DNA of 64,000 nt from a virus (IMGVR_UViG_3300043432_000083:1-64000), one strand, 5' to 3'. Positions 3,336 to 21,019 are shown, counted from the first letter of the stretch. Translations and numbers: made by a program. The notes: generated from the sequence alone by a model not told the origin.

Positions 3336-3467
3336 CTTGGCTTGGGAACAACACAGACGCATGGTTACTGATCGGGATCGCTGTTCTCGTGGCGTGGATA
3401 GTAACACGATTGATCGACTGAGGAGGAATCAATATAGTCGTCTCGCAAGAGGCAAGAAGGAGGGAAG

Positions 3468-3653: not shown

Positions 3654-3705
3654 CTTCGGCAGCAACCCCGCTCAGGTCATCGGACAGACCTTTAGGAGGA
3701 GGTGC

Positions 3706-3966: not shown

Positions 3967-3979
3967 CGGAGGCTGCGAG

Positions 3980-4654: not shown

Positions 4655-4793
4655 ACCTCAGACGGAGCGTCAGGATTCTGGCGTTGCGGGTGCGGATCAA
4701 GCGCCGCCTGCGCCTGGCAGGGCTCCAGGTCTGGTGGGACATGAACATCCCAGACTTCGTAGCAGCATTGGAACAGATGAGGAGGATAGTTCG

Positions 4794-5093: not shown

Positions 5094-5094
5094 C

Positions 5095-5814
5095 ATGACG
5101 CGCAATGCCTATATTCAGTCGATCCTGGACGAGCAGGACCGGACCGGCATCCCGGCAGTGGCCTATGACGACTGGATCGTCACGCCGATCACCAAGTTTG
5201 CCATCGACCAGATAGGTCCCGGCGACTGGTGGCTGAAGCCTCTGCACGGCATGAGCAAAGATGGATTCGACCGGACGCTGCAGCAATGCTTGTCCGGCAA
5301 TTTACTGAATGGTGCCAAGTTCGCCTATGGCAGCCATAACGACGCGGCGGAAGTGCGTCTCAAGGAGCTGATCGTTGAAGCTCGACGAGAGGAAGAGATA
5401 CGGAAGCAACTAATCGAAGCTGAGCAGTCAGAACGTGTCCGCTGGCTGGCTGCAAAGACCGAGCTGGACACCGCAGTCAAGAAGCTGAAGTGGCAGCGAA
5501 AAGACATCGTCATCACGACAGCAGGTGGCGTAGAGATAACGGTATTGGCAACATGCTATGGCAATCTGGCAGTCCATAAAGCCTTTGGGAATAACAAAGG
5601 ATGGGTCTTGACGGACCTCAAGACGCTGAAGGGCTTTGGCTTGACATTCCCGATGCAGCATCTGGCCAAGGTGGCTGCGTATCGATTCCTACTGCTGCCA
5701 GACAGTGAGTTGGAGGTAGTGCGGCGCAATGGGAAGAATAAGAAAGTAAAGGCCGCGCAGGCGTTTGCACTGAGGGACTACCTGAGCACCGGCGATCCTT
5801 ACGCAGGGATTTGA
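5095..5814 (+). CDS. Hypothetical protein
   Basis: 239-aa ORF tightly coupled to neighbours. Confidence 0.7.
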   Translation: MTRNAYIQSILDEQDRTGIPAVAYDDWIVTPITKFAIDQIGPGDWWLKPLHGMSKDGFDRTLQQCLSGNLLNGAKFAYGSHNDAAEVRLKELIVEARREEEIRKQLIEAEQSERVRWLAAKTELDTAVKKLKWQRKDIVITTAGGVEITVLATCYGNLAVHKAFGNNKGWVLTDLKTLKGFGLTFPMQHLAKVAAYRFLLLPDSELEVVRRNGKNKKVKAAQAFALRDYLSTGDPYAGI

Positions 5815-5827
5815 AACGGAGAACAAC

Positions 5828-7432: not shown

Positions 7433-7448
7433 GCGAGGGAGGATAATC

Positions 7449-7667
7449 GTGATCAAGAAGAGGTCGAAGCGACGTGGCAAAATTGAGATTGACCTGACCG
7501 GACCGGAGGGCAATGCCTATGTGCTAATGGGCTATGTGCAGTTATTGTCGAAGCAACTCGACCGCGATCCGAAACCGGTCCTGGATGAAATGATGTCCGG
7601 CGACTACGAACATCTGGTGCGGGTCTTCGACCGAGAATTCGGGCACATCGTGACGCTGTATCGGTGA
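7449..7667 (+). CDS. Conserved hypothetical phage protein
   Basis: IDLTGPEGNAYVLMG...EMMSGDYEHL pattern; GTG start with SD. Confidence 0.75.
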   Translation: MIKKRSKRRGKIEIDLTGPEGNAYVLMGYVQLLSKQLDRDPKPVLDEMMSGDYEHLVRVFDREFGHIVTLYR

Positions 7668-7696
7668 GCGCAATCACAAAGAGGAGGGATAGGGAG

Positions 7697-9310: not shown

Positions 9311-9312
9311 TC

Positions 9313-9564
9313 ATGGGCAACTGGATTCATCGAGTGAAGATCAAGCATCTGTTCACCGAAAAGGAGGATTACGAGTCCATTCAGGAATCCATGAACGCGA
9401 TTGCCGACGTGCTGAAGCGGTCAGGCTGTTTCTTTCGATTCGATCTCAAGAAGTTTCGGAATATTCCGAAAGGAGATGAGGTATTCGGACCAGCGGATTA
9501 TGCGAATAAGCTGCTTGCTAGGATGTATGATTATGCAGACGACAACCAAATTTGGATTGAGTAG
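9313..9564 (+). CDS. Hypothetical protein
   Basis: ...LARMYDYADDNQIWIE; SD upstream. Confidence 0.65.
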   Translation: MGNWIHRVKIKHLFTEKEDYESIQESMNAIADVLKRSGCFFRFDLKKFRNIPKGDEVFGPADYANKLLARMYDYADDNQIWIE

Positions 9565-9593
9565 CAGATAATTCACAATGGGAGGAACAGAGG

Positions 9594-10544
9594 ATGATCA
9601 CAAACGGAGGGCAATTACTGCAAGGCATGTATCTCATCGATCTGGACGTGCGGATACCGTGGGGCGTCCGCAAAGGGAAGCCGGAGGATGTAGGACTCAG
9701 CCAGGACAAGATGCCAGAGGAAGTCTTTCGACTCGCCAAGCGGTTCATCCCGCGCAACTGGCTGAAGGAGCATGTCTACATCGCGGGGCAGGCGGGCAAG
9801 GCGATCAATCGAGTCGCTAGTCCAGTGACATTCCCCATCGGGAAGGCGCGGCTGGTCCCGGTCAAGGCGCTGCCGGACCTGCTCAATCGGCTCCAGCAAC
9901 TTCAGGCCGACTTCAACGAGCGAACCGACTTGCGGCTGAACGACGGCGCCTATGAGCAGATGCGGGAGGACATGCTGGAGCGGCATCCCGAATTTCGGTC
10001 GGTGCTGATGGGCTGCTTCCTCCCGGTCGAGGTGATGCGGGATCGGTTCAGCCTGACGTGGCAAGTCTTCGAGCTGGCCATGCCGAAGGGTGGACAGGCT
10101 AAACAGATCTCCGATGCCAAGGCAAAGGCGCTGGCCGAAGCCCTGGAGCAGGAGGCAGCGAAAGCGAAGGCACAGGTCTCGACGTTCTTCGAGGCGCATC
10201 GGCGGACCATCTGCGAGGAGACGCTGAAAGCCTGTCAGCGGGTGTCAGAGCGGATTGCCCAGGGCCGGATCATCAACGAGGGGACGCTGAAGCAGATCAG
10301 CAAGAAGACGGAATGGTTCGCCCGGATGCTGGAGATCGGTCCTGGTGTAGGAACGGAGCAGGTGCAGTGGGCGGTTAGCCAACTCCGCTATGCGACCAAG
10401 ACGACCGAGGCCAAGGCAGTTCGGAACAACACCCAGTCAGCAGAGGAATTCAAGGAAGCGCTGAAAAAGGCGGGGGAGGAGTTGTCAAAGATCACTGATA
10501 TCGAGGTCAGTGCCGGACAGTACGGTCGGCGGCTGGTGAGGTGA
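9594..10544 (+). CDS. DUF3150-like protein
   Basis: IDLDVRIPWG..KPEDVGL..FRLAKRFIP..ARLVP pattern; located next to the AAA ATPase. Confidence 0.65.
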   Translation: MITNGGQLLQGMYLIDLDVRIPWGVRKGKPEDVGLSQDKMPEEVFRLAKRFIPRNWLKEHVYIAGQAGKAINRVASPVTFPIGKARLVPVKALPDLLNRLQQLQADFNERTDLRLNDGAYEQMREDMLERHPEFRSVLMGCFLPVEVMRDRFSLTWQVFELAMPKGGQAKQISDAKAKALAEALEQEAAKAKAQVSTFFEAHRRTICEETLKACQRVSERIAQGRIINEGTLKQISKKTEWFARMLEIGPGVGTEQVQWAVSQLRYATKTTEAKAVRNNTQSAEEFKEALKKAGEELSKITDIEVSAGQYGRRLVR

Positions 10545-10547
10545 ACT

Positions 10548-10814
10548 ATGCTGATCCGCATCGACACAGATGGGACAGTCAAGGGACTTTACAGCGATGA
10601 GTTGGCAGAGATCGGGCGCGGCATGGGGGACAGCCTGGAGGTTTGTAGGCTGTCCCATATTGAATTCAACAACGAACGGCAGTCTTGGGAAGTGGAAATC
10701 CTCGGTAGCAACCCGAAGCTAATCATCGACGGATTTCAAACACGAGCGGAGGCCTTGGACTGGGAGCAGCTAACCTTTGAACAGCAATTGGCAGAAGGGA
10801 GGATGTGCATATGA
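10548..10814 (+). CDS. Conserved protein of the AAA/DUF1257/DUF2997 cluster
   Basis: IDTDGTVKGLYSDE..RLSHIEF..W..FQTRAEALDWE. Confidence 0.7.
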   Translation: MLIRIDTDGTVKGLYSDELAEIGRGMGDSLEVCRLSHIEFNNERQSWEVEILGSNPKLIIDGFQTRAEALDWEQLTFEQQLAEGRMCI

Positions 10815-10975
10815 TCTACGCACTGAAGGCCTCGTCGGCATGGGACCAGCGCCGGACCAATCAGTCGGAACGCTGTCAGGTCTGTCGAGCGGTGTATCCT
10901 GGAGAGCTTCGGAAGAGCGTCGAAGGTGGGGTCTGCCAATTGTGCAAGAATGCGAAGAGCGAGGGGCAATCATGA
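10811..10975 (+). CDS. Small zinc-finger protein (54 aa, absent from ORF track)
   Basis: MIYALK..CQVC..VCQLC; ATGA overlaps at both ends. Confidence 0.55.
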   Translation: MIYALKASSAWDQRRTNQSERCQVCRAVYPGELRKSVEGGVCQLCKNAKSEGQS

Positions 10976-11409
10976 GCCAGTTATGCACTGTTAAGCCAAG
11001 CGAGAAGATCACCGATATCCCAGCCCTTCAAAAGGCGTTGGATGACCTGGGACTGAAGCTGGAGCAGAACAAGGCCGTTCGATTCTACCATGGGACTGAG
11101 ACCTGCACCTATGGCGCAACACTCCCAGGAAAATACGACATCGGGTTCGTGAAAATGCCGGACGGGACTTATGGGTTCCGAGCCGACAATGAGCTGCTCG
11201 GTGGGCGAAGTGGTTCGGATGGCTACGGACGTGGGGATGCCGGACGGAAGGTCCTCGGCGAGAACTGCGGCAAGCTGTTCCAACGCTATCGCTATCGGCT
11301 GCTGGAGAAGGGTCTGTATGCCAAGGGACTACATATCCTGTCCACCAAGACCGGATCGAAAGGGGAGCTGCTGCTCGACGTGCAGAAGATTGCGGTCGGC
11401 GCGAGGTAG
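10972..11409 (+). CDS. DUF1257 (Ycf35-like) protein
   Basis: MSQLCTVK..ITDIPALQKALDDLG..YDIGFVK..DGTYGFRAD. Confidence 0.75.
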   Translation: MSQLCTVKPSEKITDIPALQKALDDLGLKLEQNKAVRFYHGTETCTYGATLPGKYDIGFVKMPDGTYGFRADNELLGGRSGSDGYGRGDAGRKVLGENCGKLFQRYRYRLLEKGLYAKGLHILSTKTGSKGELLLDVQKIAVGAR

Positions 11410-11414
11410 TCGTA

Positions 11415-11855
11415 ATGGAGATGCTGTATATCCTGAACGGACAAGGGGAACCAGAGCTGACGACAGATCCACTCAAATGGAGCATATGGTTTGAACAGGC
11501 GAATCGGACAGTCGGCTATACAGATCTCGGAGATATAGGCGCAGTCTCCACGACATTCCTTGGGCTCAATCACAATTGGGGTTCCGGTCCGCCGATCCTG
11601 TGGGAGACGATGGTGTTCGGCGGACCGGAGGACCTGTGGCAGGAGCGCTATGCAAGCAAAGCGGAGGCCTTGCAAGGACATCGTGATAAGGTCGAGCATC
11701 TGCTACGGGAATACGGGACGCCATCGAGCAGAGAGCTGTCGAGGACATCCGAACCGAGTCGATTGCAAATAGCATCTATCCAGTTGGGACATCGCATATT
11801 GATCAAACAGGAGGAGGGATATGGCGACGATACGAGTGACCATCCCGGTAAATGA
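11415..11855 (+). CDS. Conserved hypothetical phage protein with C-terminal IxLGxRILIK motif
   Basis: VSTTFLGLNHNWGSGPPILWETMVFGG..RYASKAEALQGH. Confidence 0.7.
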   Translation: MEMLYILNGQGEPELTTDPLKWSIWFEQANRTVGYTDLGDIGAVSTTFLGLNHNWGSGPPILWETMVFGGPEDLWQERYASKAEALQGHRDKVEHLLREYGTPSSRELSRTSEPSRLQIASIQLGHRILIKQEEGYGDDTSDHPGK

Positions 11856-12012
11856 TCAGGAACCGGTGAAGGTGGAAGGGGTCGGGTATTCCGGCCCAGG
11901 CTGTGCCAAGGACATCGCAGCAATCCTGGATGTGCTCGGAGGAGAGTCGGAGCGCAGGAACAAGACTGAGTATTATCAGGCTGAAAAGATCAAGGAAAAG
12001 GCCCGTGCCTGA
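11821..12012 (+). CDS. DUF2997-like protein
   Basis: IRVTI..VKVEGVGYSGPGC..LG..RRNKTEYYQ; SD GGAGGAGG. Confidence 0.75.
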   Translation: MATIRVTIPVNDQEPVKVEGVGYSGPGCAKDIAAILDVLGGESERRNKTEYYQAEKIKEKARA

Positions 12013-12541
12013 TGAAGAAGCTCATCCTAATACAGGAATAATTGGAATAGTTACTGTGCCAACAGAGCAAGGCGAAATTGTACCAATACTTACTCATGTG
12101 AATACGAGTTTTGCATTCGCCCCAAATCCCTATGCCGAAGCTATGCCAGAGTATACAATAACATCCTCACCACACCCACTGAGTGTCATCTCTGCGAAAC
12201 GCGGAGTAGGGGCATGGCTGCTGTGGGACAAACAGAATCAAGGATTCCTGGTGGAAGTGCCGTATGACTGCTCTGAGTTCGCCGAAGATATGTATACAGA
12301 ACTACCTGCTGCGACGAAGACACAATTCCGGTTTCAGCGGCGCTATCAGTGGTTCATCTTTGCCACTCAGCTCCATATTGTCCAGCAGCTTCTGCTCAAG
12401 CATTTCGGTGCGTATGCGGTGGATGAGACAAACATGCCGCCGAACTGGATCGCTGCGGCGAACGCTCCGCTGTTCCAGACAAAGCATCAGCAGCGAATCG
12501 AGCTTGGGCAACGCGTACTGGTCAAGCCAGAGGAGGAGTGA
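12005..12541 (+). CDS. HARP-like domain protein with C-terminal IELGQRVLVK motif
   Basis: LVEVPYDCSEFAEDM..LP....R..QWFIF pattern; start uncertain. Confidence 0.55.
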   Translation: MPDEEAHPNTGIIGIVTVPTEQGEIVPILTHVNTSFAFAPNPYAEAMPEYTITSSPHPLSVISAKRGVGAWLLWDKQNQGFLVEVPYDCSEFAEDMYTELPAATKTQFRFQRRYQWFIFATQLHIVQQLLLKHFGAYAVDETNMPPNWIAAANAPLFQTKHQQRIELGQRVLVKPEEE

Positions 12542-12542
12542 T

Positions 12543-12749
12543 ATGCTCGGCAAAGGTAAATATGATGATGCCTGTACGACAGCACGAGCGTCAACGCAGG
12601 CGCGGGGCATTCTGCTCGTCGTCATCGACGGCCAGTATGGGCATGGATTCTCCGCCCAGGTGCCGCCTGAAGTTTCCGCACTGATTCCGAAGTTGCTGAG
12701 GGAGGTAGCAGATTCGATTGAATGCGATAATGCTGCGACGATGAATTGA
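12543..12749 (+). CDS. Hypothetical protein
   Basis: SD GAGGAGGAG before ATG 12543. Confidence 0.65.
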   Translation: MLGKGKYDDACTTARASTQARGILLVVIDGQYGHGFSAQVPPEVSALIPKLLREVADSIECDNAATMN

Positions 12750-13135
12750 AAAGGAATCTAACGATGCCGATGAATACGCTTTCGAGGGATCGTCCGCCTC
12801 AGTCGAAGGCAGTGTTGGTTGGTTGGATCGATGATGGTCGGATCGTCGTTCACACACCTTATGGAGAGGACTTCGTCAAGGATTGGAAAGCGCAGATCCC
12901 TCAGTATCTTCGGGAATGGCAGCGAACAGAACGGGTTTGGTATGTCCATGTCAAGGCGCTGGAGACGGTTTGCATTCTATTGATGAAATGGTTCGGCTGG
13001 TACAGCATCGATGTCCGGGAGATGCCGAGTCCTATTTGCAAACAGTTGGAAGAGCATCGAGAGCGACATAAAAAATCGGAGCAACAGGCTCCCATCGCGT
13101 TGGGACAGCGAATCTTAGTGAAGGACAGGCAATGA
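12746..13135 (+). CDS. Stand-alone HARP-like domain protein with C-terminal IALGQRILVK motif
   Basis: VHTPYGEDFVKDWKAQIP..REWQRTERVWYV resembles the helicase N-terminus. Confidence 0.65.
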   Translation: MKRNLTMPMNTLSRDRPPQSKAVLVGWIDDGRIVVHTPYGEDFVKDWKAQIPQYLREWQRTERVWYVHVKALETVCILLMKWFGWYSIDVREMPSPICKQLEEHRERHKKSEQQAPIALGQRILVKDRQ

Positions 13136-13145
13136 GAAGGGAGGC

Positions 13146-13634
13146 ATGATGTTCGACCAGATCGATAATTTGGCGAAGTCCCTGTCGTGGACATATGCTC
13201 AACGCACCGGAATAGAGTATGAGGAGCTCTATGCAGAAGCAGCCCTGTCGTTCCTATCAGCACAGGGGCGATATGATCCTGAGCGAAGCGCGTTGACCAC
13301 CTTCGCGTATGTTGCTATCTCGAATCACCTGAAAGGCTTCCGACCGAGCCGATGGGTGTCGTTGGAGCCGGAGGAGATGGAACAGCTTCCTGATACTCAT
13401 GTTCAGATCGGTCAGCGTGCTGAATTCCTCTCTGCGCTGGCAGATCTGTCCAAAGAAGCGCAGCATGTCTGCCTATTGGCCCTCAGCATCCCCTCAGAGG
13501 TCTGGGAGCTCGTGCCCAAATCGAGCCAAGCGCAGGGGTTGCTCATAACGCTGCTGCGGGAGCAGGGGTGGCGGCACAGGAAAATCAAAAAGTCTTTTGG
13601 AGAGATTCGGACCGTCTTGAAGGAGACGCGATGA
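13146..13634 (+). CDS. Sigma-70 family (region 2-like) phage transcription factor
   Basis: IEYEELYAEAALSFLSAQGRYDPERSALTTFAYVAISNHL. Confidence 0.75.
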   Translation: MMFDQIDNLAKSLSWTYAQRTGIEYEELYAEAALSFLSAQGRYDPERSALTTFAYVAISNHLKGFRPSRWVSLEPEEMEQLPDTHVQIGQRAEFLSALADLSKEAQHVCLLALSIPSEVWELVPKSSQAQGLLITLLREQGWRHRKIKKSFGEIRTVLKETR

Positions 13635-13924
13635 TCCGACGAAAAGCTCCACAACAACAGGCGCGACAGATCGGTCCCATTGAGCGAGAATATCTGCTAA
13701 AGTTTCAACAGTGGGCATTGGATCGCCACATCGAATTCCGCTGTCCGCAGCATGCCGATCCGAATCCGTTTTGCAGTTGTTATCTCTTCTCCGAATCATC
13801 GCAGAAATTCTCGACCGCCCAGATCGAGGCGCTGAAACGGGATTACTGGTCTTGGAACGATGGCAAGAAAAAAGAGCAGCAAAAAAGGGGCAGACTGTAT
13901 AATAAGGAGAAGGAGCGCACATGA
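13631..13924 (+). CDS. Hypothetical protein
   Basis: ATGA overlap; C-x2-H..CSC. Confidence 0.55.
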   Translation: MIRRKAPQQQARQIGPIEREYLLKFQQWALDRHIEFRCPQHADPNPFCSCYLFSESSQKFSTAQIEALKRDYWSWNDGKKKEQQKRGRLYNKEKERT

Positions 13925-14217
13925 CCGCGAAGGAAGTGTATAGGAAGTATAACAGATTATTTGTTCCAGAATTAGAATATCCCGGTAGCGTGTTGGACGA
14001 TCTCTGGGAAGCTGTCAAGCACGAAGCCGCGCCCCTCGATGCCGAGCGCGTGCAGGTGAGGCTCAAAGAGTTAGCGGAGTGGTTTGAAGATCCGAATCAG
14101 TCGCCGAGTGAAGTACAATCCATGTCTGGATTCAGCGCTGGCTATCTGCTGCGTGAAATCGCGGCGAGGCTAGGGTCCGTGATGGCAGAACATCAGCGAG
14201 AGAAGGGGACGGAGTGA
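13921..14217 (+). CDS. Hypothetical protein
   Basis: ATGA overlap; SD AGGAG. Confidence 0.6.
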   Translation: MTAKEVYRKYNRLFVPELEYPGSVLDDLWEAVKHEAAPLDAERVQVRLKELAEWFEDPNQSPSEVQSMSGFSAGYLLREIAARLGSVMAEHQREKGTE

Positions 14218-14519
14218 GAACACTCGGAGAAATCATTGAGTTAACTCGGAATGGTGAACGTCCAGACTACGACGAGCTTCGTTATGCTATTTGTGCGCTC
14301 GATGCTCTATCGACATTCGATTCGCACGGATTACAGCGTGCATCGAATATCGAGTGGGGAGAGAGCTTCAATCGTTGGAAGCAGGCGCTGGGCAAATCCC
14401 CAAAGGATTGGATTGGCTGGAATAATGACCCGGAGAATCCGGAGTTCCTTGCGCGTCGACGATTAGTTATAAAGTTCACCAAGAAGGTCATGAAAGACAT
14501 GAAGGAGGAGACGCCATGA
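14214..14519 (+). CDS. Hypothetical phage protein
   Basis: GTGA overlap; 101 aa. Confidence 0.65.
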   Translation: MRTLGEIIELTRNGERPDYDELRYAICALDALSTFDSHGLQRASNIEWGESFNRWKQALGKSPKDWIGWNNDPENPEFLARRRLVIKFTKKVMKDMKEETP

Positions 14520-14743
14520 CCACCGACGATATGATTAAAGCGCGGGATGACTTTTCGCTCCAACAAGATTATTTGACTCCCTCGCAGTGCTTTGAGGCCG
14601 GGTGGCTCGCCTGCCAACGGCAGATCAATGCAGAGATGCAGGGCATGTTGGAGCGGGTCAGGATAGCTGAATCACCGCACACCGTGACCGAGCTGTCTCC
14701 TGGAGTATTCGGATCAATTCCAGGACAGGACCAGACACCATGA
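14516..14743 (+). CDS. Hypothetical protein
   Basis: ATGA overlap; SD GGAGG. Confidence 0.55.
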   Translation: MTTDDMIKARDDFSLQQDYLTPSQCFEAGWLACQRQINAEMQGMLERVRIAESPHTVTELSPGVFGSIPGQDQTP

Positions 14744-15018
14744 CCCGCTACCTCTGGACCGCCTCGCGCGGCTTGACCGAACACCGCCCCTGGCCGACGT
14801 GGATCGCTATTGGAGCCACGTGTCTCGCCCTCGGCGCCATCGGGGATCACGTGTTGACGAATTATCAAACAGGGGTGGCGGTGGAGAATCTGAGAACGCA
14901 AACCGAGCGTATCTTGCTGGCCGCTGAGCGCCATGAATTGCCGAGAGAACGCGTAGTGACGCGGGCGCAGGCTGCCGTCACAACAGATCGAATCGACAAG
15001 GAACGGAGGTCTCAATGA
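14740..15018 (+). CDS. Membrane-anchored hypothetical protein
   Basis: One hydrophobic segment; ATGA overlaps. Confidence 0.55.
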   Translation: MTRYLWTASRGLTEHRPWPTWIAIGATCLALGAIGDHVLTNYQTGVAVENLRTQTERILLAAERHELPRERVVTRAQAAVTTDRIDKERRSQ

Positions 15019-15230
15019 AGCTGATCTTATTGATCTTATTGTTCAGCATTTCCGGCATCATCGGCGCGTTCTGCTGGCCCTACGCGATCAACTCATGGTT
15101 GTTGTATGCCGGTAAACCTCCTAGAGTGTTATGGTGGCATGGTTTTTTGCTCGGCTACGTCCCAGGGCTCGGACAGATGAGCGTTCCGGCGGCGGTGTTA
15201 ACGTGGATCGTTATGATGTTTCTCGCGTGA
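15015..15230 (+). CDS. Small membrane protein
   Basis: Very hydrophobic 71 aa; SD GGAGG. Confidence 0.7.
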   Translation: MKLILLILLFSISGIIGAFCWPYAINSWLLYAGKPPRVLWWHGFLLGYVPGLGQMSVPAAVLTWIVMMFLA

Positions 15231-15247
15231 GAAAGGAGGCCAACCCC

Positions 15248-15697
15248 ATGACCGCCCAGGAAGCTGGTATTGTCCTCAAGGTCCACCCGAACACGGTCCA
15301 TCGTTTAGTCCGCAACGGCCACCTGACCGCCTCACATGTACCGAAGGGCCGCCAACAGCATCACGTCATCATCGACGAGGCCAGTGTCAAAGCGTTCAAG
15401 GTCACCCCGAAGCGCACGCCGTCACAAATTGCCACAGAGATGTGGAGGAAGCGCCGCGAGATTGCTCACAGTCCAATGTCACCTGCACCGAGCATGTCGA
15501 GGGCGGAGGATGACCGGCTGATGAGCGATGACGCCGCAGAATCGCTGGCAATCAGACGGCGCGTGTTGGCTGGACAGGCGAAGAAGGGGGATGTGGAGAC
15601 GCTGCAGCAGAACCGTGTGACGCTGTGGTACAACAGAGGCCGCAATCTGATTGGAGATGTCCGGCAGAGCGTAGTAGCGCATTTGGTAGGAGCGTAG
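15248..15697 (+). CDS. HTH_17/excisionase-like DNA-binding protein
   Basis: MTAQEAGIVLKVHPNTVHRLVRNGHLTA; SD AAGGAGG. Confidence 0.8.
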   Translation: MTAQEAGIVLKVHPNTVHRLVRNGHLTASHVPKGRQQHHVIIDEASVKAFKVTPKRTPSQIATEMWRKRREIAHSPMSPAPSMSRAEDDRLMSDDAAESLAIRRRVLAGQAKKGDVETLQQNRVTLWYNRGRNLIGDVRQSVVAHLVGA

Positions 15698-15715
15698 AGG
15701 AGGAGAGCTGGGGTT

Positions 15716-15919
15716 ATGAGTGAGATAGAGGTCCAAATCCGCGTGACTAAGCCGGAGTGGAAGGATTGGAAGGTATATATGCTACAACGTGACCCACAGT
15801 GGCCGACATTATTGCGACTCGACGGCCAAGGAATCGGGAGCAGCATCATCGGTGATTTGTCTGTTCGGCAATTAATGCAGAATCTGGAGGATGCCGCCAA
15901 TGGCAAGCCATTGTACTGA
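15716..15919 (+). CDS. Hypothetical protein
   Basis: SD GGAGGAG. Confidence 0.55.
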   Translation: MSEIEVQIRVTKPEWKDWKVYMLQRDPQWPTLLRLDGQGIGSSIIGDLSVRQLMQNLEDAANGKPLY

Positions 15920-15991
15920 CTCGTCAGGAGTACCAATATCGCACCATGACACACTGCGGATCGTAGGGGAAATAGTGAACCAGAGGAGGGG

Positions 15992-16312
15992 ATGATGGCA
16001 CACGGTAATTATGATTGTTGTGCGATCTGCGATACTGAGGTTCGTTATAATACGAATGCGCCCGCAAAAGGTGTTTTGTGCCGTGAATGCTGTGATGCGC
16101 TGAGGGCATCTGATGTTCTTGTATGTGGAGCGGTAGGACTAAAGGCTTGGATGTTACAAATACCAGAACAGGCTCAGCCCCTACTATCCGCACTTAAATT
16201 TAGGGAATGTTGCTATCCGAACAGTGTTGACGATACGTGGAAATCTATCAACAAATCACAGCGCAATATCTCGAACGAAAATGGAGCATTGCAACAGAAG
16301 GGGGATGTTTAA
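15992..16312 (+). CDS. Cys-rich (zinc-binding) protein
   Basis: CCAIC..CRECC..CCY. Confidence 0.65.
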   Translation: MMAHGNYDCCAICDTEVRYNTNAPAKGVLCRECCDALRASDVLVCGAVGLKAWMLQIPEQAQPLLSALKFRECCYPNSVDDTWKSINKSQRNISNENGALQQKGDV

Positions 16313-16572
16313 TGGCTACTTTGAATGAATTGGAATTTGAATTTACCATCGGACAGATCGTTTATCATCGGCTCAAGCTGCCGCATCTTATGGGCAGTCA
16401 ACCCGAGAGCCGCACCCCACTACTGATCGTTACTCGGATCGCAGAGGAGTGCAGTGGTGGGGTACAGTTGAAGTACCAATGCCGGATCGGGGTCTCCAGT
16501 GGAATACACGTGATCACAATGGCGGATGGCGCACGGACCTATGAATTTCATGAGTGTGAGCTGGAGGCATAA
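16312..16572 (+). CDS. Hypothetical protein
   Basis: TAATG overlap; FEFTIGQIVYH. Confidence 0.6.
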   Translation: MATLNELEFEFTIGQIVYHRLKLPHLMGSQPESRTPLLIVTRIAEECSGGVQLKYQCRIGVSSGIHVITMADGARTYEFHECELEA

Positions 16573-16678
16573 GCGGACACTACGGTCGGCGCCCGCTGAT
16601 GAGCGGCGCAGACAATAATCCCGCAGCGACAGGTGGGGGCCGAGTGACCGTCTGCGGGAAATACAAAGGAGATCAACC

Positions 16679-17032
16679 ATGAAAATCAAGACAGGACTTG
16701 AACAGGAATACACGGACTACAAAGCACGTAACGCTGACCCCTATAGCGCTGCAGTGGTGGACTACAGTGAGAAGTGGGCGAACCTTATGGAAGTTAAGAT
16801 GTCATAAGGGCAATCTATTGTCGATTGTGCAAAATCGACTAGCCATGAAACAGACACCGATGGAATTACCGGCTTTATGTATGGGTGTGCCGTACAGGGG
16901 TTGGCCTACTTCTGGGAGCATGGGGAGGAGTTGCGGCAGTGGCACAACCTTGATACGCAAATCAAGGATGAGGGTGAGCAGGCCAACAAGTCTGGCGGCG
17001 TGCTGAATCCAGCAATCCTGACAATCGGCTAA
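16679..17032 (+). pseudogene. Phage protein gene (118 codons) interrupted by one in-frame TAA at 16805-16807
   Basis: SD AAGGAG; MKIKTGLEQEYTDYKARNADPYSAAVVDYSEKWANLMEVKMS*GQSIVDCAKSTSHETDTDGITGFMYGCAVQGLAYFWEHGEELRQWHN...GGVLNPAILTIG reads as one protein across the stop. Confidence 0.8.
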
Positions 17033-17039
17033 TGCAATT

Positions 17040-17249
17040 CGGGGCGTCGTCTAAACGGAGGACACTGGGCTTTACCCCCGGAAATGGCGGTAGGGGAGTC
17101 GGGAGAGACACATGAAAAAGCCGTGGTATCACATAGAAATAACGATTTGGGAGTTGTTTATTGTTTACTTCATGGTCAACTTACTGCTTAAGTATTTCGG
17201 AGTACTGCAACGGTTCGGCTTGTGTCCCTGACCCAGCCGCCCGCCCCGA
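17040..17249 (+). ncRNA. tRNA-like RNA (Gln/Glu-type body, anticodon UUA) whose T-loop is replaced by a 146-nt insert
   Basis: Acceptor CGGGGCG 17040-46/CGCCCCG 17242-48, A73 at 17249; D-stem GTCT/GGAC; anticodon stem CTGGG/CCCGG with loop CTTTACC; variable loop AAAT; T-stem GGCGG 17086-90/CCGCC 17237-41; insert 17091-17236. Confidence 0.85.
17112..17231 (+). CDS. 39-aa hydrophobic peptide encoded inside the tRNA-like RNA
   Basis: MKKPWYHIEITIWELFIVYFMVNLLLKYFGVLQRFGLCP; GGGAGAG 5' of ATG; one TM-like segment. Confidence 0.6.
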   Translation: MKKPWYHIEITIWELFIVYFMVNLLLKYFGVLQRFGLCP

Positions 17250-17284
17250 TCAATTAAGTAACCGTCAAATAAAGAGCAAATAAC

Positions 17285-17563
17285 ATGACCTATCCAACAT
17301 CGATAGCTATGCAGATTGAGGAATATGATCGTAAGCATCGCCAATTCATAGAAGCAATCCGACCGCTTATCGAGATGAAAGCAAAGATCGTAGATGTGCA
17401 GCCATCGCCGATATACGTCCTGAACTATGACGGAACATCTATTGTTCGCGTCGAGACTCGGTGGTCGCCTGAAAGCCAGCAGAGCTTTGCGCTTATTGAT
17501 AAACAGATAAACGCTATCGGTAAAACCATCTTCGGGGAATTGTGGGACCATGAACCGCGCTGA
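17285..17563 (+). CDS. Hypothetical protein
   Basis: 92-aa ORF. Confidence 0.55.
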   Translation: MTYPTSIAMQIEEYDRKHRQFIEAIRPLIEMKAKIVDVQPSPIYVLNYDGTSIVRVETRWSPESQQSFALIDKQINAIGKTIFGELWDHEPR

Positions 17564-17637
17564 TTGGGACACGATCTGGATCATCCTCGCCGTCGCGATG
17601 GTGCTGACGGTGGCGGTGGTGATTGGGGAGGGGTGAT

Positions 17638-18022
17638 ATGGGACGCAAATTGATGCGAGTACCGATAGATTTTCAGTATCCGCTCAATAAAGTGTGGAGT
17701 GGCTACATCAATCCTTATCCATCTACGAGGTGTGCGGCCTGTGATGGAAGCGGAGAGGTGTGGGATTGCCCTGAAACACAGCAGCGCCATGATGCGTGGA
17801 CGGCCTATGATCCGCCGACCGGAGATGGATACCAGCTATGGGGAAACGACATCCGAGGGATCGCCGATATCGCCTATCTTCTCGACGATAGAAGCGCTCT
17901 GCGAATGGGCCGCCGATCATGCGACGACATTCGGAAGCCACAAGGCTGATGCCTTACAATGGAGGCGCATGCTGGAAGAGAAGTTTGTGCGGCACGAAGA
18001 GGGCAGAATGATGTTCTGTTAG
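17638..18022 (+). pseudogene. Conserved phage protein gene split by one extra G in the GGGG run at 17840-17843
   Basis: MGRKLMRVPIDFQYPLNKVWSGY...PPTGDGYQLW in one frame continues as ETTSEGSPISPIFSTIEALCEW in the +1 frame. Confidence 0.7.
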
Positions 18023-18129
18023 ACATTGACGCGGTGAGGTGGGCCGTGCCGCTGCTGGCGACTTGCTCATTCACGCCAGCCCTCCCTCGCCCTGGCTGGG
18101 GGCTCCAGGCTGAACGGCTCAAGCCCCCT

Positions 18130-18255
18130 TTACCGTATCACCCCAGGTCGCTCCGTCGTGGAGATCGGCGGGGTCGTCGGAGCGGGCCACTTCGAAGGCG
18201 TATGGGTACAGGCCACCATAAACAGTACAGCGAGCACTGCAATAAGCGCCCTCAT
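18130..18255 (-). CDS. Small Pro-rich lipoprotein (o-spanin candidate), absent from ORF track
   Basis: MRALIAVLAVLFMVAC|THTPSKWPAPTTPP...; lipobox-like; last gene of the lysis region. Confidence 0.55.
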   Translation of the reverse strand: MRALIAVLAVLFMVACTHTPSKWPAPTTPPISTTERPGVIR

Positions 18256-18578
18256 CGCATCGCCGCATTCAAGAGATCGAAAAGCAACGATACAGGCACC
18301 GCAATCGTCGGCGCTCCTTGCCCCTTCTGCTCGTCGTACCAGTACACAGCGGGGACGATGCCCTTCCTGGCGATGTACATCTGTGCCTTCTGATACACCT
18401 CCTTGTAGGCGTCATCATGCTTCTCAGCGTCAAACAAGCGGGTCTGCAAGACGCCAAGATCGATGTATTGATTGACCTCTGCCGTGTCTTCGACTTTCTT
18501 GACGGCGGACGCAGTGAGTTGCAAGCCCGCCGCAATCGCGGGAATCAGTGCGGTTCCGATGGTGGCAAGTCCTGGCAT
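18252..18578 (-). CDS. Hypothetical protein of the lysis region (possible i-spanin)
   Basis: Hydrophobic N-terminus; SD GGAGG; overlaps the lipoprotein gene. Confidence 0.55.
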   Translation of the reverse strand: MPGLATIGTALIPAIAAGLQLTASAVKKVEDTAEVNQYIDLGVLQTRLFDAEKHDDAYKEVYQKAQMYIARKGIVPAVYWYDEQKGQGAPTIAVPVSLLFDLLNAAMR

Positions 18579-18733
18579 TGGTGTCCCTCCTGATAATCTC
18601 TGAACATCCGCTCCATGGCGCGACGTACACGCTGTGGCATTGGTGCGTTAGGCGGAAACGCCGTATTCTTGACCCCGCCCCAAGCGTAGTAGGGCTTTCG
18701 TCGTTTGGCTTTCTGTTCGGCCATCATACCTCG

Positions 18734-18865
18734 CTACCGTGGCGGAATGCACCATAGCGCCGCCTCTCCACGGGAGAAGCCATGATCCCTTGCCGCTTGG
18801 TAGCATCCAGCGCCAGCACAGCCAGCAAACAGGAACATTGTCAGAAGCAGCAGTACGTATCGCAT
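18734..18865 (-). CDS. Small lipoprotein
   Basis: MRYVLLLLTMFLFAGC lipobox. Confidence 0.55.
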   Translation of the reverse strand: MRYVLLLLTMFLFAGCAGAGCYQAARDHGFSRGEAALWCIPPR

Positions 18866-18956
18866 AGTTCTCGCTAGATGCGCGGGCGAATCGGGGAGTC
18901 TCACCTCCCTGGGTCGCGATTGCGTAGAGGGACCCCCGACCGCCCGCAAAGATGAA

Positions 18957-19121
18957 TTAGTCCTTTGACAGCGCCCCGAACGCCGCAGGTAGGGTCGAGA
19001 CCGCCCACACCATCCAGTCGTTCGGTAGTTCACAGTTGAAGCTCTTGAAAAAGACCAAGAGGACCGCCGTCACGCCGAGACCCGCAATCGTAGTTTTCCA
19101 GTTCTTCAGTCGTTCCAACAT
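18957..19121 (-). CDS. Small holin-like membrane protein (54 aa, absent from ORF track)
   Basis: MLERLKNWKTTIAGLGVTAVLLVFF...WAVSTLPAAFGALSKD; two hydrophobic segments; SD GAGGTG. Confidence 0.65.
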   Translation of the reverse strand: MLERLKNWKTTIAGLGVTAVLLVFFKSFNCELPNDWMVWAVSTLPAAFGALSKD

Positions 19122-19137
19122 CACCTCACCCCCTTCC

Positions 19138-19356
19138 TTACCACTCGTACATCGTTAAGATCAACCACACCAGCGCGTAGCCGAGCAATAACAAGATCGC
19201 CGTCACGCCGGGATGGCCCAGGATACGCAACACATCGAGGCCGGTCACGTCAGCCATGCTCGCAACTCCGCCAGCGCACGATGCCAGAAACAGACCCGCA
19301 CCGTGGCCGACATGGCTCGCCCAGGGCAGGGACCGAAGCGGGTGACGGCGCGACAT
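19138..19356 (-). CDS. Membrane protein
   Basis: C-terminal hydrophobic helix; start uncertain. Confidence 0.45.
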   Translation of the reverse strand: MSRRHPLRSLPWASHVGHGAGLFLASCAGGVASMADVTGLDVLRILGHPGVTAILLLLGYALVWLILTMYEW

Positions 19357-19366
19357 GGTCCGTACA

Positions 19367-19801
19367 TCACCCTTGGTCCATTTGGGGATATGGTCGATTA
19401 AGGACTGTAATCCACACAGCCTCGTTCGTCCATAAGGCTCGTTGAATCTGTCGAAACAGCGGAGTGAACGCCGCTCGGCTCCGAGTGACCGCATGGTCGC
19501 CAACGGCTTGCCCGACCAGTACGCACCCCTCGGTATCCGAGGCGGTGTTCCCGCTATGAATTCGTATGCCTGTAAAGCCCGGCACATCAAGGAGCAGCGG
19601 CAGGTCCCGCTTAAACCGTTGGGAAGGCGTCACGATGACCTTGTAACGTCCAGTGGGGATGGCTGTCTGGCCATCGACCTTTGGCCCGGTTCGCACCTGA
19701 TCTTCGAGGGTCCAGCACAATCGGTCCTCTTGGCCCTCCAGGAACAGTTCCCCGATGGTGCAGTCATCGTACAAATATCGGCGCAACAGATTCAACTGCA
19801 T
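19367..19801 (-). CDS. DUF5675-family protein, putative endolysin
   Basis: TIGEL..CWTLED..TAIPTGRY..SQRFKR.LP.LLDVPGFTGIRIHSGNTASDTEGCVLVG. Confidence 0.85.
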   Translation of the reverse strand: MQLNLLRRYLYDDCTIGELFLEGQEDRLCWTLEDQVRTGPKVDGQTAIPTGRYKVIVTPSQRFKRDLPLLLDVPGFTGIRIHSGNTASDTEGCVLVGQAVGDHAVTRSRAAFTPLFRQIQRALWTNEAVWITVLNRPYPQMDQG

Positions 19802-19802
19802 A

Positions 19803-19988
19803 TCATGCCTCCACTGGGATGTACGTAGGGCATGGAATCACCCGGTAAAACTTCGCCTCTGGCTGATCTAAGGCACAGCGCAACACATCGAACACAAAGC
19901 CCCGCATCATGTCTGTGCTGACATCGAGGCGGTCCAATTCCTCCGCTGTGAATGAGCGATAGGTGCCGTGCTGAGGCAGCGCCTTCAT
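19803..19988 (-). CDS. Hypothetical protein
   Basis: ATGA overlap (MKALPQ...). Confidence 0.45.
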   Translation of the reverse strand: MKALPQHGTYRSFTAEELDRLDVSTDMMRGFVFDVLRCALDQPEAKFYRVIPCPTYIPVEA

Positions 19989-21019
19989 AGCCCCTGTGTC
20001 TCCTGCACCGCCGTCACGCGGCACTGGTCATCAGTCGTCAACGTCAGCTTGAACCCTGGCCCGGCTATCCGCAAGGTCCCGCCACACGCCCAAGGCTGCA
20101 CGGTCCACAACTCCGAGACGGGAAGACCAGCAATCGTGTCGAAGGCGATCACGGTGCCCAGTGTCTCGTCATGGGGCAATCGCGCCCTGAAGCCGGTCAT
20201 GGCAAGCATGAAGACAAACTGATTTATGGGGTGCGGATTGCCATTATGCCACCGCAATAAGGCCAACTGCGCCACGCAGCGCGAGCAGGCGACCCATTGG
20301 TTCATCATTGACGCCAGGAACTCCTGACGTGCCTGCTCGAAGTAGCAGGACGGCAGCATCGACCTCAAGTAGTGCGTCGGCTCACAGCCCGCCTCGGCAA
20401 TCAGGGCATCATGCCATTGACGACGCGGATGCTCAGGGTCGAACGGGAACACTGTCTGAAACTGGTGTCCCAGCTCATGGATGATCACTTGGGTCAACTG
20501 ATATTGCAACACCACTGTAACGTCAGACGGAAAGGGGTTCTCCATGACCCCCAGACCCGCCGTAATGTTGATCCGACATGGCCCAGGATAGAACAGCGGG
20601 CCATCAGGGAGAATGCAATCACTAGTGTTGAGGGCATCAGGAATCGGGGCGCCTTCAATCGTGATGATGCGCAAGTCTGGAAACCAGGCCCTCGGCACCG
20701 TCTCCAGGACATGCTCGACGACATGCGCCGCTTCTGGCGTCAACCGCTCGGCCCCAATCACGACCAGCCCATCGGGTTGGGCCGCAACGGGACTAGCCGT
20801 GATGAGGAGCGCGAGCGTCAGCCAGAGCGGGAGGGGGGCGCCCAGGCTGGTGCGGGGGGACGCGCCTTCGGATTCTGTGTGAATCACGCCAGCACAATCA
20901 GGGTATTCCCAACAGGGGAGCGGATATTGCCCATGCGCCAGCGGCCAACAGCCATCGACGCGACACGGATGAGACGGCCCGAGTGCGTCTTTCATCGCGC
21001 TCATTTCGTAATCCACCAC
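19985..21019 (-). CDS. Putative secreted or membrane-anchored zinc metallopeptidase
   Basis: IIHELGH (HExxH) with downstream QEFLA; signal-like LWLTLALLITASPVAA. Confidence 0.6.
   Translation of the reverse strand: MVDYEMSAMKDALGPSHPCRVDGCWPLAHGQYPLPCWEYPDCAGVIHTESEGASPRTSLGAPLPLWLTLALLITASPVAAQPDGLVVIGAERLTPEAAHVVEHVLETVPRAWFPDLRIITIEGAPIPDALNTSDCILPDGPLFYPGPCRINITAGLGVMENPFPSDVTVVLQYQLTQVIIHELGHQFQTVFPFDPEHPRRQWHDALIAEAGCEPTHYLRSMLPSCYFEQARQEFLASMMNQWVACSRCVAQLALLRWHNGNPHPINQFVFMLAMTGFRARLPHDETLGTVIAFDTIAGLPVSELWTVQPWACGGTLRIAGPGFKLTLTTDDQCRVTAVQETQGL

What the first reader, a model, noticed from the sequence alone, without database searches (positions are those of the whole stretch)
17040..17249. 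tRNA-shaped RNA with an ochre (UUA) anticodon whose T-loop is a 146-nt hairpin encoding a hydrophobic peptide
Seen: an intact cloverleaf scaffold (7-bp acceptor, D-arm GTCT/GGAC, 5-bp anticodon stem with 7-nt loop CTTTACC, 4-nt variable loop, perfect T-stem GGCGG/CCGCC, discriminator A, then TCA rather than CCA). The T-loop TTCGA is absent and replaced by 17091-17236. That insert holds a complete ORF (17112-17231, MKKPWYHIEITIWELFIVYFMVNLLLKYFGVLQRFGLCP). It folds back on itself (GTCGGG/CCTGAC, GACACA/TGTGTC, AAGCCG/CGGCTT, GAAATA/TATTTC, GAGTTG/CAACTT), so the RBS and start region pair with the end of the ORF. Known: the body resembles tRNA-Gln/Glu; tmRNA places its ORF at the anticodon-arm position, not in the T-loop; RBS-sequestered hydrophobic peptides are typical of type I toxins. 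Inference: a tRNA-mRNA hybrid. It could be excised by RNase P/Z as a stable, translationally silent membrane-peptide message, act as a decoy or sensor for host anticodon nucleases that unlocks the peptide on cleavage, or be a suppressor tRNA switched off by the insert. Caveat: C at position 37 is non-canonical, so decoding ability is doubtful.
Basis: partly seen in the sequence, partly recalled or inferred. Interest (0 to 1): 0.9.

Follow-up and report, generated by a model that had tools for sequence, protein, structure and literature searches.

The report
T-loop-less ochre tRNA carrying a peptide gene
A freshwater phage carries a tRNA-shaped gene that could read the stop codon UAA but has a small membrane-peptide gene where its T-loop should be, and it lies 7 bases after an anti-defence (Tad4-family) gene broken by a single in-frame UAA, so the two may form a stop-codon switch; none of this has been tested in the laboratory.

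Summary
Positions 17040-17249(+) form a Glu/Gln-type cloverleaf: 7-bp acceptor, D-arm with GG, 5-bp anticodon stem, loop CUUUACC (anticodon UUA), 4-nt variable loop and a G53-C61 T-stem. In place of the T-loop there are 146 nt holding a 39-codon ORF with its own Shine-Dalgarno. ARAGORN and Rfam miss the native gene. ARAGORN calls tRNA-Stop(tta) once the interior is deleted, using native letters only; shuffled controls pass in 0.3-2.6% of trials.

- The gene directly upstream matches Pfam Tad4 (Thoeris inhibitor, E=1.8e-30) across a single in-frame TAA. It is the only such interrupted gene I found in the 97.8-kb phage. A separate first-stage note on this window (e1-5962281) had also flagged this TAA.
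- Short contigs from the source metagenome show at least two relatives in other flanks. Their 5' 31 nt are identical, their anticodon loop differs (6 nt, UGUGAU), and one has a shorter interior.
- Six of seven listed ORF substitutions are synonymous (P about 0.005), so the peptide gene looks real.

No excision restores a T-loop, and I found no intron core, RNA ligase, RtcB or reverse transcriptase in the phage.

Best reading (about 0.4): a cis-linked ochre suppressor and client pair on a tRNA-mRNA hybrid. Rivals: an RNase P-processed scaffold for the peptide mRNA, or a relic. No relatives turned up in the large databases, and no RNA data are available.

The parts
16679..17032 (+). Tad4-family (type I Thoeris inhibitor) gene, 117 sense codons, with one in-frame TAA at codon 43; ends with TAA 17030-17032, 7 nt before the tRNA-like gene
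   Evidence: Read through, it matches Pfam PF25186 Tad4 (E=1.8e-30, residues 1-104 of 117) and phrog_9822 (E=1.6e-33). Nine viral relatives are uninterrupted. All 15 invariant columns are kept, nine of them after the stop.
16805..16807 (+). In-frame TAA (candidate client codon)
   Evidence: Aligns with K (4), E, T or S in relatives, just before an invariant Gly. The next in-frame start is 24 codons downstream, inside a conserved motif. It is the only in-frame stop in the genome flanked by coding sequence and not followed by a start with an SD.
17040..17090 (+). tRNA 5' part: acceptor 5' strand, D-arm, anticodon arm (anticodon TTA 17072-17074, C37 at 17075), 4-nt variable loop, T-stem 5' strand
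   Evidence: ARAGORN tRNA-Stop(tta) with controls; Glu/Gln type. 17040-17069 is 100% identical in a relative that differs by about 12% elsewhere.
17091..17236 (+). 146-nt replacement of the T-loop; extends the T-stem into a long imperfect hairpin; GC 0.445 (interior 0.36) against 0.547 for the genome
   Evidence: The basal parts 17091-17109 and 17225-17236 are kept in a relative whose interior is about 48 nt instead of 115. It occurs once in the genome.
17101..17107 (+). Shine-Dalgarno GGGAGAG of the peptide ORF; its Gs pair with CCC of CCCUGA at the ORF end
   Evidence: unpaired probability 0.00-0.01 for GGG.
17112..17231 (+). 39-codon ORF for a hydrophobic peptide (N-terminal KK, one hydrophobic stretch of about 20 residues)
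   Evidence: 6 of 7 listed differences to a relative are individually synonymous (P=0.005), against 2 of 7 in each other frame. No homologue in the protein collections beyond itself.
17237..17249 (+). tRNA 3' part: T-stem 3' strand, acceptor 3' strand, discriminator A; followed by TCA, not CCA
   Evidence: 17225-17254 is retained in one relative.

Best explanation
The element is a tRNA(Glu/Gln)-derived gene that has lost its T-loop. In its place the T-arm carries a small, genuinely coding membrane-peptide gene. It belongs to a small family of such modules in freshwater phages.

In this phage the anticodon loop reads UUA, and the module sits 7 nt downstream of a Tad4-family anti-Thoeris gene whose only defect is one in-frame UAA. 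I read the two as a cis-linked suppressor and client pair.

Inferred steps of the mechanism:
- Both genes lie in the same + strand run of early genes with no terminator called between them, so I assume they share one early transcript.
- RNase P cuts at 17040, and a 3' nuclease plus CCA addition finish the tRNA-like RNA.
- While the RNA is folded, the peptide's SD is shut in the basal helix.
- The RNA is charged, most likely with Gln, Lys or Glu, and reads UAA inefficiently, because position 37 is C and the elbow is abnormal.
- Full-length Tad4 is therefore made only at a low or conditional level.
- Opening the T-arm by ribosomes translating the peptide would destroy the tRNA fold, so the two outputs would exclude each other.

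Shown here: the cloverleaf, the missing T-loop, the ORF under protein-level constraint, the SD-stop pairing in the predicted fold, the Tad4 match across the TAA, and the existence of relatives.

Inferred only: processing, charging, decoding and any switching.
For: (1) The cloverleaf is specific. ARAGORN calls tRNA-Stop(tta) on native letters after interior deletion, against 0.3% and 2.6% in controls. U8, A14, G18G19, A21, U33 and G53-C61 are present.

(2) The upstream gene matches Tad4 across the TAA (E=1.8e-30). All relatives are uninterrupted. The aligned residue is K, E, T or S, so a Lys, Glu or Gln insertion would be tolerated, and TAA is one change from AAA, GAA or CAA.

(3) The part after the stop shows no decay. 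pN is 0.19-0.24 after the stop against 0.29-0.43 before it, and all invariant residues are kept.

(4) It is the only interrupted gene I found in about 110 crude gene calls. It is the immediate neighbour of the only tRNA-like gene in the genome, and the stop type matches the anticodon. My rough estimate is below 1e-3 by chance within one genome.

(5) The module is conserved in at least two other genomic contexts, with 31 identical 5' nucleotides. That argues against a dead one-off.

(6) The peptide ORF is under purifying selection.
Against: - No T-loop can be rebuilt by any excision. The possible 7-nt loops are GACCCAG, TACCCAG, TAGCCAG and so on. A 146-nt helix at the elbow has no precedent in a decoding tRNA and should clash with the ribosome; this is from my knowledge of ribosome structure, not tested here.
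- C37 is almost never seen in tRNAs.
- The relatives carry a 6-nt loop, UGUGAU, which cannot decode. So decoding is not a conserved property of the family.
- The phage ends 31 of about 110 genes with TAA. An efficient suppressor would be costly.
- Anti-defence genes are dispensable, so a chance nonsense mutation is not rare.
- This finding came out of a scan of very many windows, so chance coincidences are expected somewhere.
- Nothing shows that the RNA is made, charged or used.
Confidence: 0.4

Rival explanations
1. A tRNA-shaped processing and stability scaffold for a small-peptide mRNA, with no decoding. The acceptor/T-stem helix directs RNase P (5') and a 3' nuclease to cut a compact, closed mRNA of about 210 nt out of the polycistronic early transcript. 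This would work like tRNA punctuation, or like the laboratory 'tRNA scaffold' for RNA expression. The peptide is translated only when the basal helix opens. The TAA in Tad4 is an unrelated nonsense mutation.
For: - The ORF shows protein-level constraint.
- The SD is paired with the stop region.
- The acceptor and D region is perfectly conserved while the anticodon loop is free to change, even to 6 nt, in relatives.
- The same + strand gene block has a bona fide Hammerhead_II ribozyme placed in the same way, between a stop codon and the next SD. So this phage does use intercistronic RNA-processing elements.
- Position -1 is U.
Against: - It does not explain why the loop here is exactly a 7-nt U33-UUA loop next to the genome's only TAA-interrupted gene.
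- One relative has an interior too short (about 48 nt) for this ORF, so the peptide is not the conserved part.
- The hairpin is no more stable than expected for the peptide.
Confidence: 0.3
2. A relic. A once-functional phage ochre-suppressor tRNA lost its T-loop to the insertion of a small-gene cassette with imperfect inverted ends. The tRNA part is now dead and only hitch-hikes with the peptide gene, and Tad4 is a pseudogene that lost its suppressor.
For: - No T-loop, C37, and no call by any tRNA finder.
- The insert is AT-rich compared with the genome and has imperfect inverted ends.
- The relatives' anticodon loop looks degraded, 6 nt.
- No splicing or repair enzymes in the phage.
Against: - The 31 nt of acceptor plus D-arm are identical between relatives that differ by about 12% elsewhere. 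The chance of that is about 0.02 if they were evolving neutrally.
- All seven differences (six substitutions and one deleted base) in the tRNA 5' part cluster within 17070-17083, which does not look like uniform decay.
- Tad4 shows no second lesion.
- The insert occurs once in the genome and has no target-site duplication.
Confidence: 0.2
3. An anti-defence RNA: a decoy or sensor for tRNA-targeting host nucleases that cut U-rich anticodon loops of Glu, Gln or Lys tRNAs. It sits in an anti-defence neighbourhood, and the variable anticodon loop sets which nuclease is addressed.
For: A Glu/Gln-type body with a UUU-containing loop. Adjacent to an anti-Thoeris gene. The loop is the one hypervariable part between relatives.
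Against: Purely circumstantial. No nuclease, target or cleavage is known. The relatives' loop UGUGAU resembles no tRNA loop that I know to be a nuclease target. It does not explain the matched TAA.
Confidence: 0.07
4. An intron. The 146 nt are spliced out, by self-splicing or by enzymes, to give a normal suppressor tRNA.
For: Group I introns are known in the T-loop of tmRNA genes (PMC11915505). Archaeal tRNAs can carry T-loop introns (PMC3241643).
Against: - No Rfam group I hit or any ribozyme hit at E<=10.
- 146 nt is far below known group I sizes. The smallest intron-bearing tmRNA gene (tmRNA plus intron) in PMC11915505 is 545 bp.
- No excision restores UUCRA, whereas tmRNA introns always reconstitute the loop (PMC11915505).
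- No RtcB, RNA ligase or splicing endonuclease in the phage.
- The host looks bacterial (SD sites, sigma-like gene).
Confidence: 0.03

Closest known systems
Phage-encoded suppressor tRNAs with in-frame stop codons in phage genes (stop-codon-recoded crAss-like and Lak phages; e.g. bioRxiv 10.1101/2021.08.26.457843, PMC9523058, PMC10879173)
   Same: A phage tRNA gene whose anticodon matches a stop codon, and a phage gene that needs that stop read to give the full protein.
   Different: Here there is one client codon in one accessory gene of a phage that otherwise uses the standard code (31 of about 110 genes end in TAA). The stop is UAA rather than UAG or UGA. The tRNA lacks a T-loop, has C37, and carries an ORF.
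tmRNA (tRNA-mRNA hybrid), including forms with a group I intron in the T-loop (PMC11915505)
   Same: One RNA combines a tRNA-like part with an ORF. In tmRNA genes the T-loop is a known place of interruption.
   Different: tmRNA has no anticodon arm, has the G3-U70 alanine identity, and its ORF lies between the D-like loop and the T-arm without an SD or AUG. tmRNA introns splice to restore the T-loop. Here the anticodon arm is present, positions 3-70 are G-C, the ORF has its own SD and AUG, and no T-loop can be restored. ARAGORN finds no tmRNA.
hok/sok-type type I toxin mRNAs (from my own knowledge, not tested here)
   Same: A small hydrophobic peptide whose SD is closed by pairing between the 5' and 3' parts of a compact, stable mRNA.
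   Different: No sequence similarity to any toxin family. No antisense promoter detected. The closing helices here are the stems of a tRNA.
YrlA / bacterial Y RNAs, which are tRNA mimics also found in phages (PMC4201824)
   Same: A non-decoding RNA with tRNA-like arms fused to a long helix.
   Different: As I recall, in YrlA the T-arm and D-arm are intact and the long helix replaces the anticodon arm; I did not open PMC4201824 to check this. Here it would be the reverse. No Rfam hit.
Laboratory ochre suppressors of E. coli (supB tRNA-Gln, supG/L tRNA-Lys; from my own knowledge)
   Same: Anticodon UUA on a Gln- or Lys-type tRNA, inserting Gln or Lys at UAA with modest efficiency.
   Different: Those are otherwise normal tRNAs with A37 and a T-loop.

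Membership tests
Canonical elongator tRNA | 7-bp acceptor, D-arm with G18G19, 5-bp anticodon stem, 7-nt loop with U33, 4-5-nt variable loop, 5-bp T-stem with G53-C61, all with correct spacing | tested here: met
   (direct reading). ARAGORN call after interior deletion; controls 6/2000 and 51/2000.
Canonical elongator tRNA | T-loop UUCRANY that forms the elbow with the D-loop | tested here: not met
   146 nt stand in its place, and no combination of flanking letters gives U54-U55-C56-R57-A58.
Canonical elongator tRNA | Purine at position 37 | tested here: not met
   C at 17075.
Canonical elongator tRNA | Detected by tRNA models on the native sequence | tested here: not met
   ARAGORN finds no gene, with or without introns allowed. 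Rfam RF00005 gives no hit at E<=10.
Suppressor tRNA with client gene | Anticodon complementary to a stop codon | tested here: met
   TTA at 17072-17074 in a 7-nt loop after U33.
Suppressor tRNA with client gene | A gene with the cognate in-frame stop, with homology continuing across the stop | tested here: met
   Tad4 PF25186 match over residues 1-104 across TAA 16805-16807. Alignment A1.
Suppressor tRNA with client gene | Pair conserved in relatives | tested here: not met
   Nine Tad4 loci have neither an in-frame stop nor a tRNA. Relatives of the element have another loop and other flanks.
Suppressor tRNA with client gene | Aminoacylation and read-through | not testable with these tools
   Needs acid-urea Northern blots and reporter assays.
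tRNA or tmRNA gene with group I or BHB intron | Catalytic intron core or a bulge-helix-bulge motif, and splicing that restores the T-loop | tested here: not met
   No Rfam ribozyme or intron hit at E<=10. The loop cannot be restored. No endonuclease or ligase in the phage.
tmRNA | tRNA-Ala-like domain without an anticodon arm, with a tag ORF that has no start codon | tested here: not met
   ARAGORN -m finds none. Positions 3-70 are G-C. An anticodon arm is present. The ORF has an SD and AUG.
Type I toxin-antitoxin | Small hydrophobic peptide with a sequestered SD | tested here: met
Type I toxin-antitoxin | Antisense RNA partner, or similarity to a known toxin family | tested here: not met
   No promoter-like site on the - strand (a simple scan). 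No Pfam or PHROG match at E<=10, and no feature hit above the chance level.
MITE / mobile inverted-repeat insertion | Terminal inverted repeats, target-site duplication, several copies | tested here: not met
   Imperfect inverted ends are present, but there is no flanking direct repeat and only one copy in the genome.
Retron msr-msd RNA | Terminal inverted repeats, short stem-loops, a long hairpin and an adjacent reverse transcriptase | tested here: not met
   The shape is similar, but there is no RVT_1 anywhere in the phage, and the spacing is exactly that of a tRNA.
YrlA / Y RNA | Intact T- and D-arms, with the long helix in place of the anticodon arm | tested here: not met
   No Rfam hit at E<=10. 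The architecture is reversed.

The most novel reading that the evidence does not exclude
A bifunctional tRNA-mRNA hybrid of a kind not described. A T-loop-less tRNA whose T-arm is itself the message for a membrane peptide still gets charged and reads UAA, and so gates an anti-Thoeris (Tad4) gene placed just upstream. The folded state (tRNA active, peptide silent) and the ribosome-opened state (peptide made, tRNA destroyed) exclude each other, giving the phage a two-state RNA switch between an anti-defence protein and a membrane peptide.
Probability: 0.15. Interest if true: 0.9.

Novelty: new variant of a known kind. Interest (0 to 1): 0.62.

Why it matters
If the link is real, three things follow.
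- A standard-code phage would be using a private, weak ochre suppressor to meter a single anti-defence protein.
- A tRNA could then decode without a T-loop and with a large cargo at its elbow, which present knowledge of ribosome structure does not predict.
- Tad4-type Thoeris inhibitors would be under translational control.

Even on the more modest reading, a tRNA-shaped, RNase P-cut scaffold for a small-peptide mRNA would be a natural counterpart of the engineered 'tRNA scaffold'. It would also add a second kind of intercistronic processing signal to a phage that already uses a hammerhead ribozyme.

There is a practical point as well. Genes of this shape are invisible to ARAGORN and to the Rfam tRNA model, so similar modules may be overlooked elsewhere.

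Tried and rejected
- Exact-pattern scans for relatives found nothing real.
  - IMG/VR: anticodon arm, T-arm base, D-arm and gapped basal-helix pattern. The last gave one hit, L027, which on reading has no tRNA-like part and is a chance match.
  - JGI metagenome contigs: T-arm base. The 11 hits all lack the tRNA 5' half and are chance matches.
  - GTDB genomes: D-arm and 3' end, none.
- BLAST of the region or the 5' half against phages and E. coli genomes: no match.
Nothing in Pfam or PHROGs, and nothing above the chance level in the ESM Atlas.
- The downstream gene P0001 has no homologue.
- The AAA+ protein (7664-9310, one of the larger early proteins) gave only two IMG/VR relatives, both at 37% identity, so synteny could not be used.
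- Sequencing runs: only the source sample holds the stretch, and no RNA holder is listed. Expression and splicing could therefore not be examined.
- Tandem back-up stops after TAA-terminated genes: 45% have TAG or TGA within 10 codons, against 34% (TGA genes) and 13% (TAG genes). With crude gene calls and small numbers this is inconclusive.
- A 6-nt complementarity between the anticodon loop and codons 2-4 of the ORF (pair I4) is at the chance level for this length.
- I looked for a hidden T-arm inside the insert. GGTTCGGCT at 17211-17219 has no flanking stem.
- Retron, YrlA, tmRNA, intron and MITE readings were rejected; see the membership tests.
- I did not use structure or complex prediction, because no claim here rests on protein binding.

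Full report
**Where it lies.** The window is the first 64 kb of a 97,760-bp IMG/VR virus record with direct terminal repeats. It comes from a freshwater metagenome. The element sits near the end of a run of small + strand genes: a sigma-like gene, an HTH gene and many orphans. The phage has no canonical tRNA gene. ARAGORN finds none on the whole genome, and Rfam RF00005 gives no hit at E<=10.

**The observation.**
- The 5' part, 17040-17090, has tRNA spacing to the base: 7-bp acceptor strand, U8, a 4-bp D-stem with loop AAACGGA (A14, G18G19, A21), A26, a 5-bp anticodon stem, loop CUUUACC (U33, anticodon UUA, C37), a 4-nt variable loop and GGCGG.
- The 3' part, 17237-17249, supplies CCGCC, the acceptor 3' strand and discriminator A.
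- Between them lie 146 nt instead of seven.
- The minimum-free-energy fold gives the cloverleaf with one long T-arm hairpin.

That test donates a T-loop, so I ran a fairer one. I deleted the interior at all combinations of 26 x 27 end points, using native letters only. 21 of these constructs are called tRNA-Stop(tta). Constructs with a shuffled body and a donated perfect T-arm are called in only 6 of 2000 cases. Constructs with the acceptor kept and the interior shuffled are called in 51 of 2000. The scaffold is tRNA-derived beyond reasonable doubt. Its 5' half shares 32 of 51 positions with both E. coli tRNA-Glu(UUC) and tRNA-Gln(UUG), and almost nothing with Lys, Val, Met or Leu. The D-stem, position 26 and the 4-nt variable loop follow the Glu pattern.

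**Is the hairpin more than chance?** Less so. The whole element folds at z=-1.9 against dinucleotide shuffles. The hairpin 17086-17241 is no more stable than sequences that encode the same peptide with resampled or permuted synonymous codons (z +0.36 and -0.50). What is notable is the base of the arm. The T-stem continues into GUCGGG/CCUGAC and GACACA/UGUGUC, which pair the SD (GGGAGAG, 6 nt before the AUG) with the last codons and the UGA stop. The unpaired probability of the SD Gs is about 0.

**The upstream gene.** This is the main addition to the finding as given. The frame 16679-17032 ends 7 nt before the element and contains one in-frame TAA at codon 43.
- Read through, it matches Pfam PF25186, the type I Thoeris inhibitor Tad4, at E=1.8e-30 over residues 1-104. 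It also matches phrog_9822 at E=1.6e-33. According to a recent review, Tad4 binds ThsB and blocks its active site with a loop (PMC13728456).
- Nine viral relatives (40-67% identity) are uninterrupted. The TAA column holds K (four times), E, T or S, next to an invariant Gly.
- All invariant residues are kept, nine of them after the stop. Non-synonymous divergence is lower after the stop than before it.
- There is no start codon for 24 codons after the TAA.
- A crude genome-wide screen looked for stops flanked on both sides by coding-like sequence. This was the only case not followed at once by an SD and a start.
- A separate first-stage note on this window (e1-5962281) had seen the same TAA. 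I confirmed it independently and added the family assignment.

**Relatives.** The large collections gave nothing: six exact-pattern scans, BLAST, and protein searches with the peptide and with the downstream gene. Laying the contigs of the source sample's two runs on the region was informative. The main contig is identical to the window, including the TAA and the insert. Short contigs at lower depth show relatives.
- **Relative 1** (406 nt, about 88% identical over 17039-17229).
  - The match starts at 17039, one base before the first acceptor base, after an unrelated flank.
  - It is identical over the first 31 nt.
  - Its anticodon loop is UGUGAU, one base shorter with four substitutions.
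  - It keeps the T-arm base and the ORF, then diverges at the ORF's stop.
- **Relative 2** (149 nt).
  - It has the same altered loop.
  - It keeps 17077-17109 and 17225-17254.
  - It carries about 48 other letters in place of the 115-nt interior.
  - It then continues into an unrelated SD and ATG.

So the tRNA-like frame plus the basal helix is the conserved unit. The interior is exchangeable and the anticodon loop is variable. These are fragments from one sample, possibly from few genomes, and I could not retrieve their full sequences.

**Constraint on the ORF and the helix.** Seven differences to the relative are listed inside the ORF. Six are individually synonymous, and two of those share one codon, so together the seven changes give H7R and L25F. 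Placing the same kinds of change at random gives six or more synonymous in 0.5% of trials, and five or more in 3.8%. The other two frames score 2 of 7. Within the predicted helix, one pair changes on both sides (G17153A with C17180U) and three A-to-G changes keep their pairs as G-U. One change breaks a pair. The protein-level signal is the clearer one. The peptide has two N-terminal lysines and one hydrophobic stretch and belongs to no known family.

**What it is not.**
- *Not an intron-containing tRNA in any known sense.* There is no group I or other ribozyme signal at E<=10. At 146 nt it is far too short. No excision restores a T-loop, unlike the T-loop introns of tmRNA genes, which always do (PMC11915505). 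The phage encodes no RtcB, RNA ligase or splicing endonuclease.
- *Not tmRNA*: it has an anticodon arm, no G3-U70, and an ORF with its own SD and AUG.
- *Not a retron RNA*, despite the similar outline: no reverse transcriptase is present.
- *Not YrlA*.
- *Not a multi-copy MITE*.

**How it most likely works.** Two facts pull in different directions. The match between a UUA anticodon and the only TAA-interrupted gene, which is its immediate neighbour, is hard to put down to chance within one genome. My rough product is under 1e-3: 2/110 for adjacency, 3/64 for a stop anticodon, 1/3 for the same stop. Against that, the scan looked at very many windows and anti-defence genes do decay. On the other side, a tRNA without a T-loop, with C37 and with a 146-nt helix at the elbow is a poor candidate for passage through the ribosome, and the relatives' 6-nt loop cannot decode at all.

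I therefore put about 0.4 on a live or conditional suppressor and client pair. In this reading both genes, which lie in the same + strand run with no terminator called between them, share one early transcript. RNase P and 3' trimming release the tRNA-like RNA, it is charged with Gln, Lys or Glu, and weak UAA reading meters Tad4. I put about 0.3 on a pure processing and stability scaffold for the peptide mRNA. That reading fits the conserved acceptor and D region and the free loop. It also fits the phage's use of a Hammerhead_II ribozyme in the same stop-element-SD arrangement at 1660-1731. I put about 0.2 on a relic of a former suppressor and client pair, and the rest on a nuclease decoy or an intron. 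The first two readings can both be true at once. That combination, a two-state tRNA/mRNA molecule, is the most novel case the evidence does not exclude.

**Limits.** There is no RNA evidence of any kind, since no RNA run is listed for this DNA. The comparative evidence rests on a few short contigs from the source sample. The gene calls used for genome-wide statements are my own crude ones. Statements about ribosome sterics, synthetase identity rules and RNase P preferences come from general knowledge, not from tests here.

Noticed in passing
window 1660-1731 (+): Rfam Hammerhead_II ribozyme at 54.7 bits (gathering score 37). It starts on the last base of the stop codon (1658-1660) of a Cys-rich ORF and lies a few bases before the SD of the next gene (ATG 1750). 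This is an intercistronic self-cleaving ribozyme in the same + strand gene block as the tRNA-like element.
   Followed up: partly
window 175-251: Another first-stage note (e1-5962282) proposes a type III hammerhead here. Rfam finds nothing in 100-400 at E<=10, nor in 1-20000 at E<=1.
   Followed up: partly
window 17030-17191 (+): After the terminal TAA of the Tad4 gene, the same frame stays open for 52 more codons through the tRNA-like gene to TAA 17189-17191. A UAA suppressor would also extend Tad4. Probably chance.
   Followed up: no
window 16970-17010 and 17274-17430: The source metagenome holds other, diverged copies of the Tad4 gene and of the downstream orphan gene 17285-17563 (about 89% identity) in other flanks. 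So these accessory genes circulate among co-occurring phages.
   Followed up: no
window 13146-13634 and 15131-15697 (+): A sigma-70 region 2-like protein and an HTH_17 / excisionase-like protein lie among the small orphan genes upstream.
   Followed up: no
whole genome (G000): This 97.8-kb phage with terminal repeats has no detectable canonical tRNA, and the one larger protein I searched with has relatives only at 37% identity in IMG/VR. Stop use in crude gene calls: TGA 55, TAA 31, TAG 24.
   Followed up: partly
window 17039 and 17249: The base before the acceptor stem (T) can pair with discriminator A, making an 8-bp terminal inverted repeat (pair I1). This could shift or weaken RNase P cleavage.
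   Followed up: no
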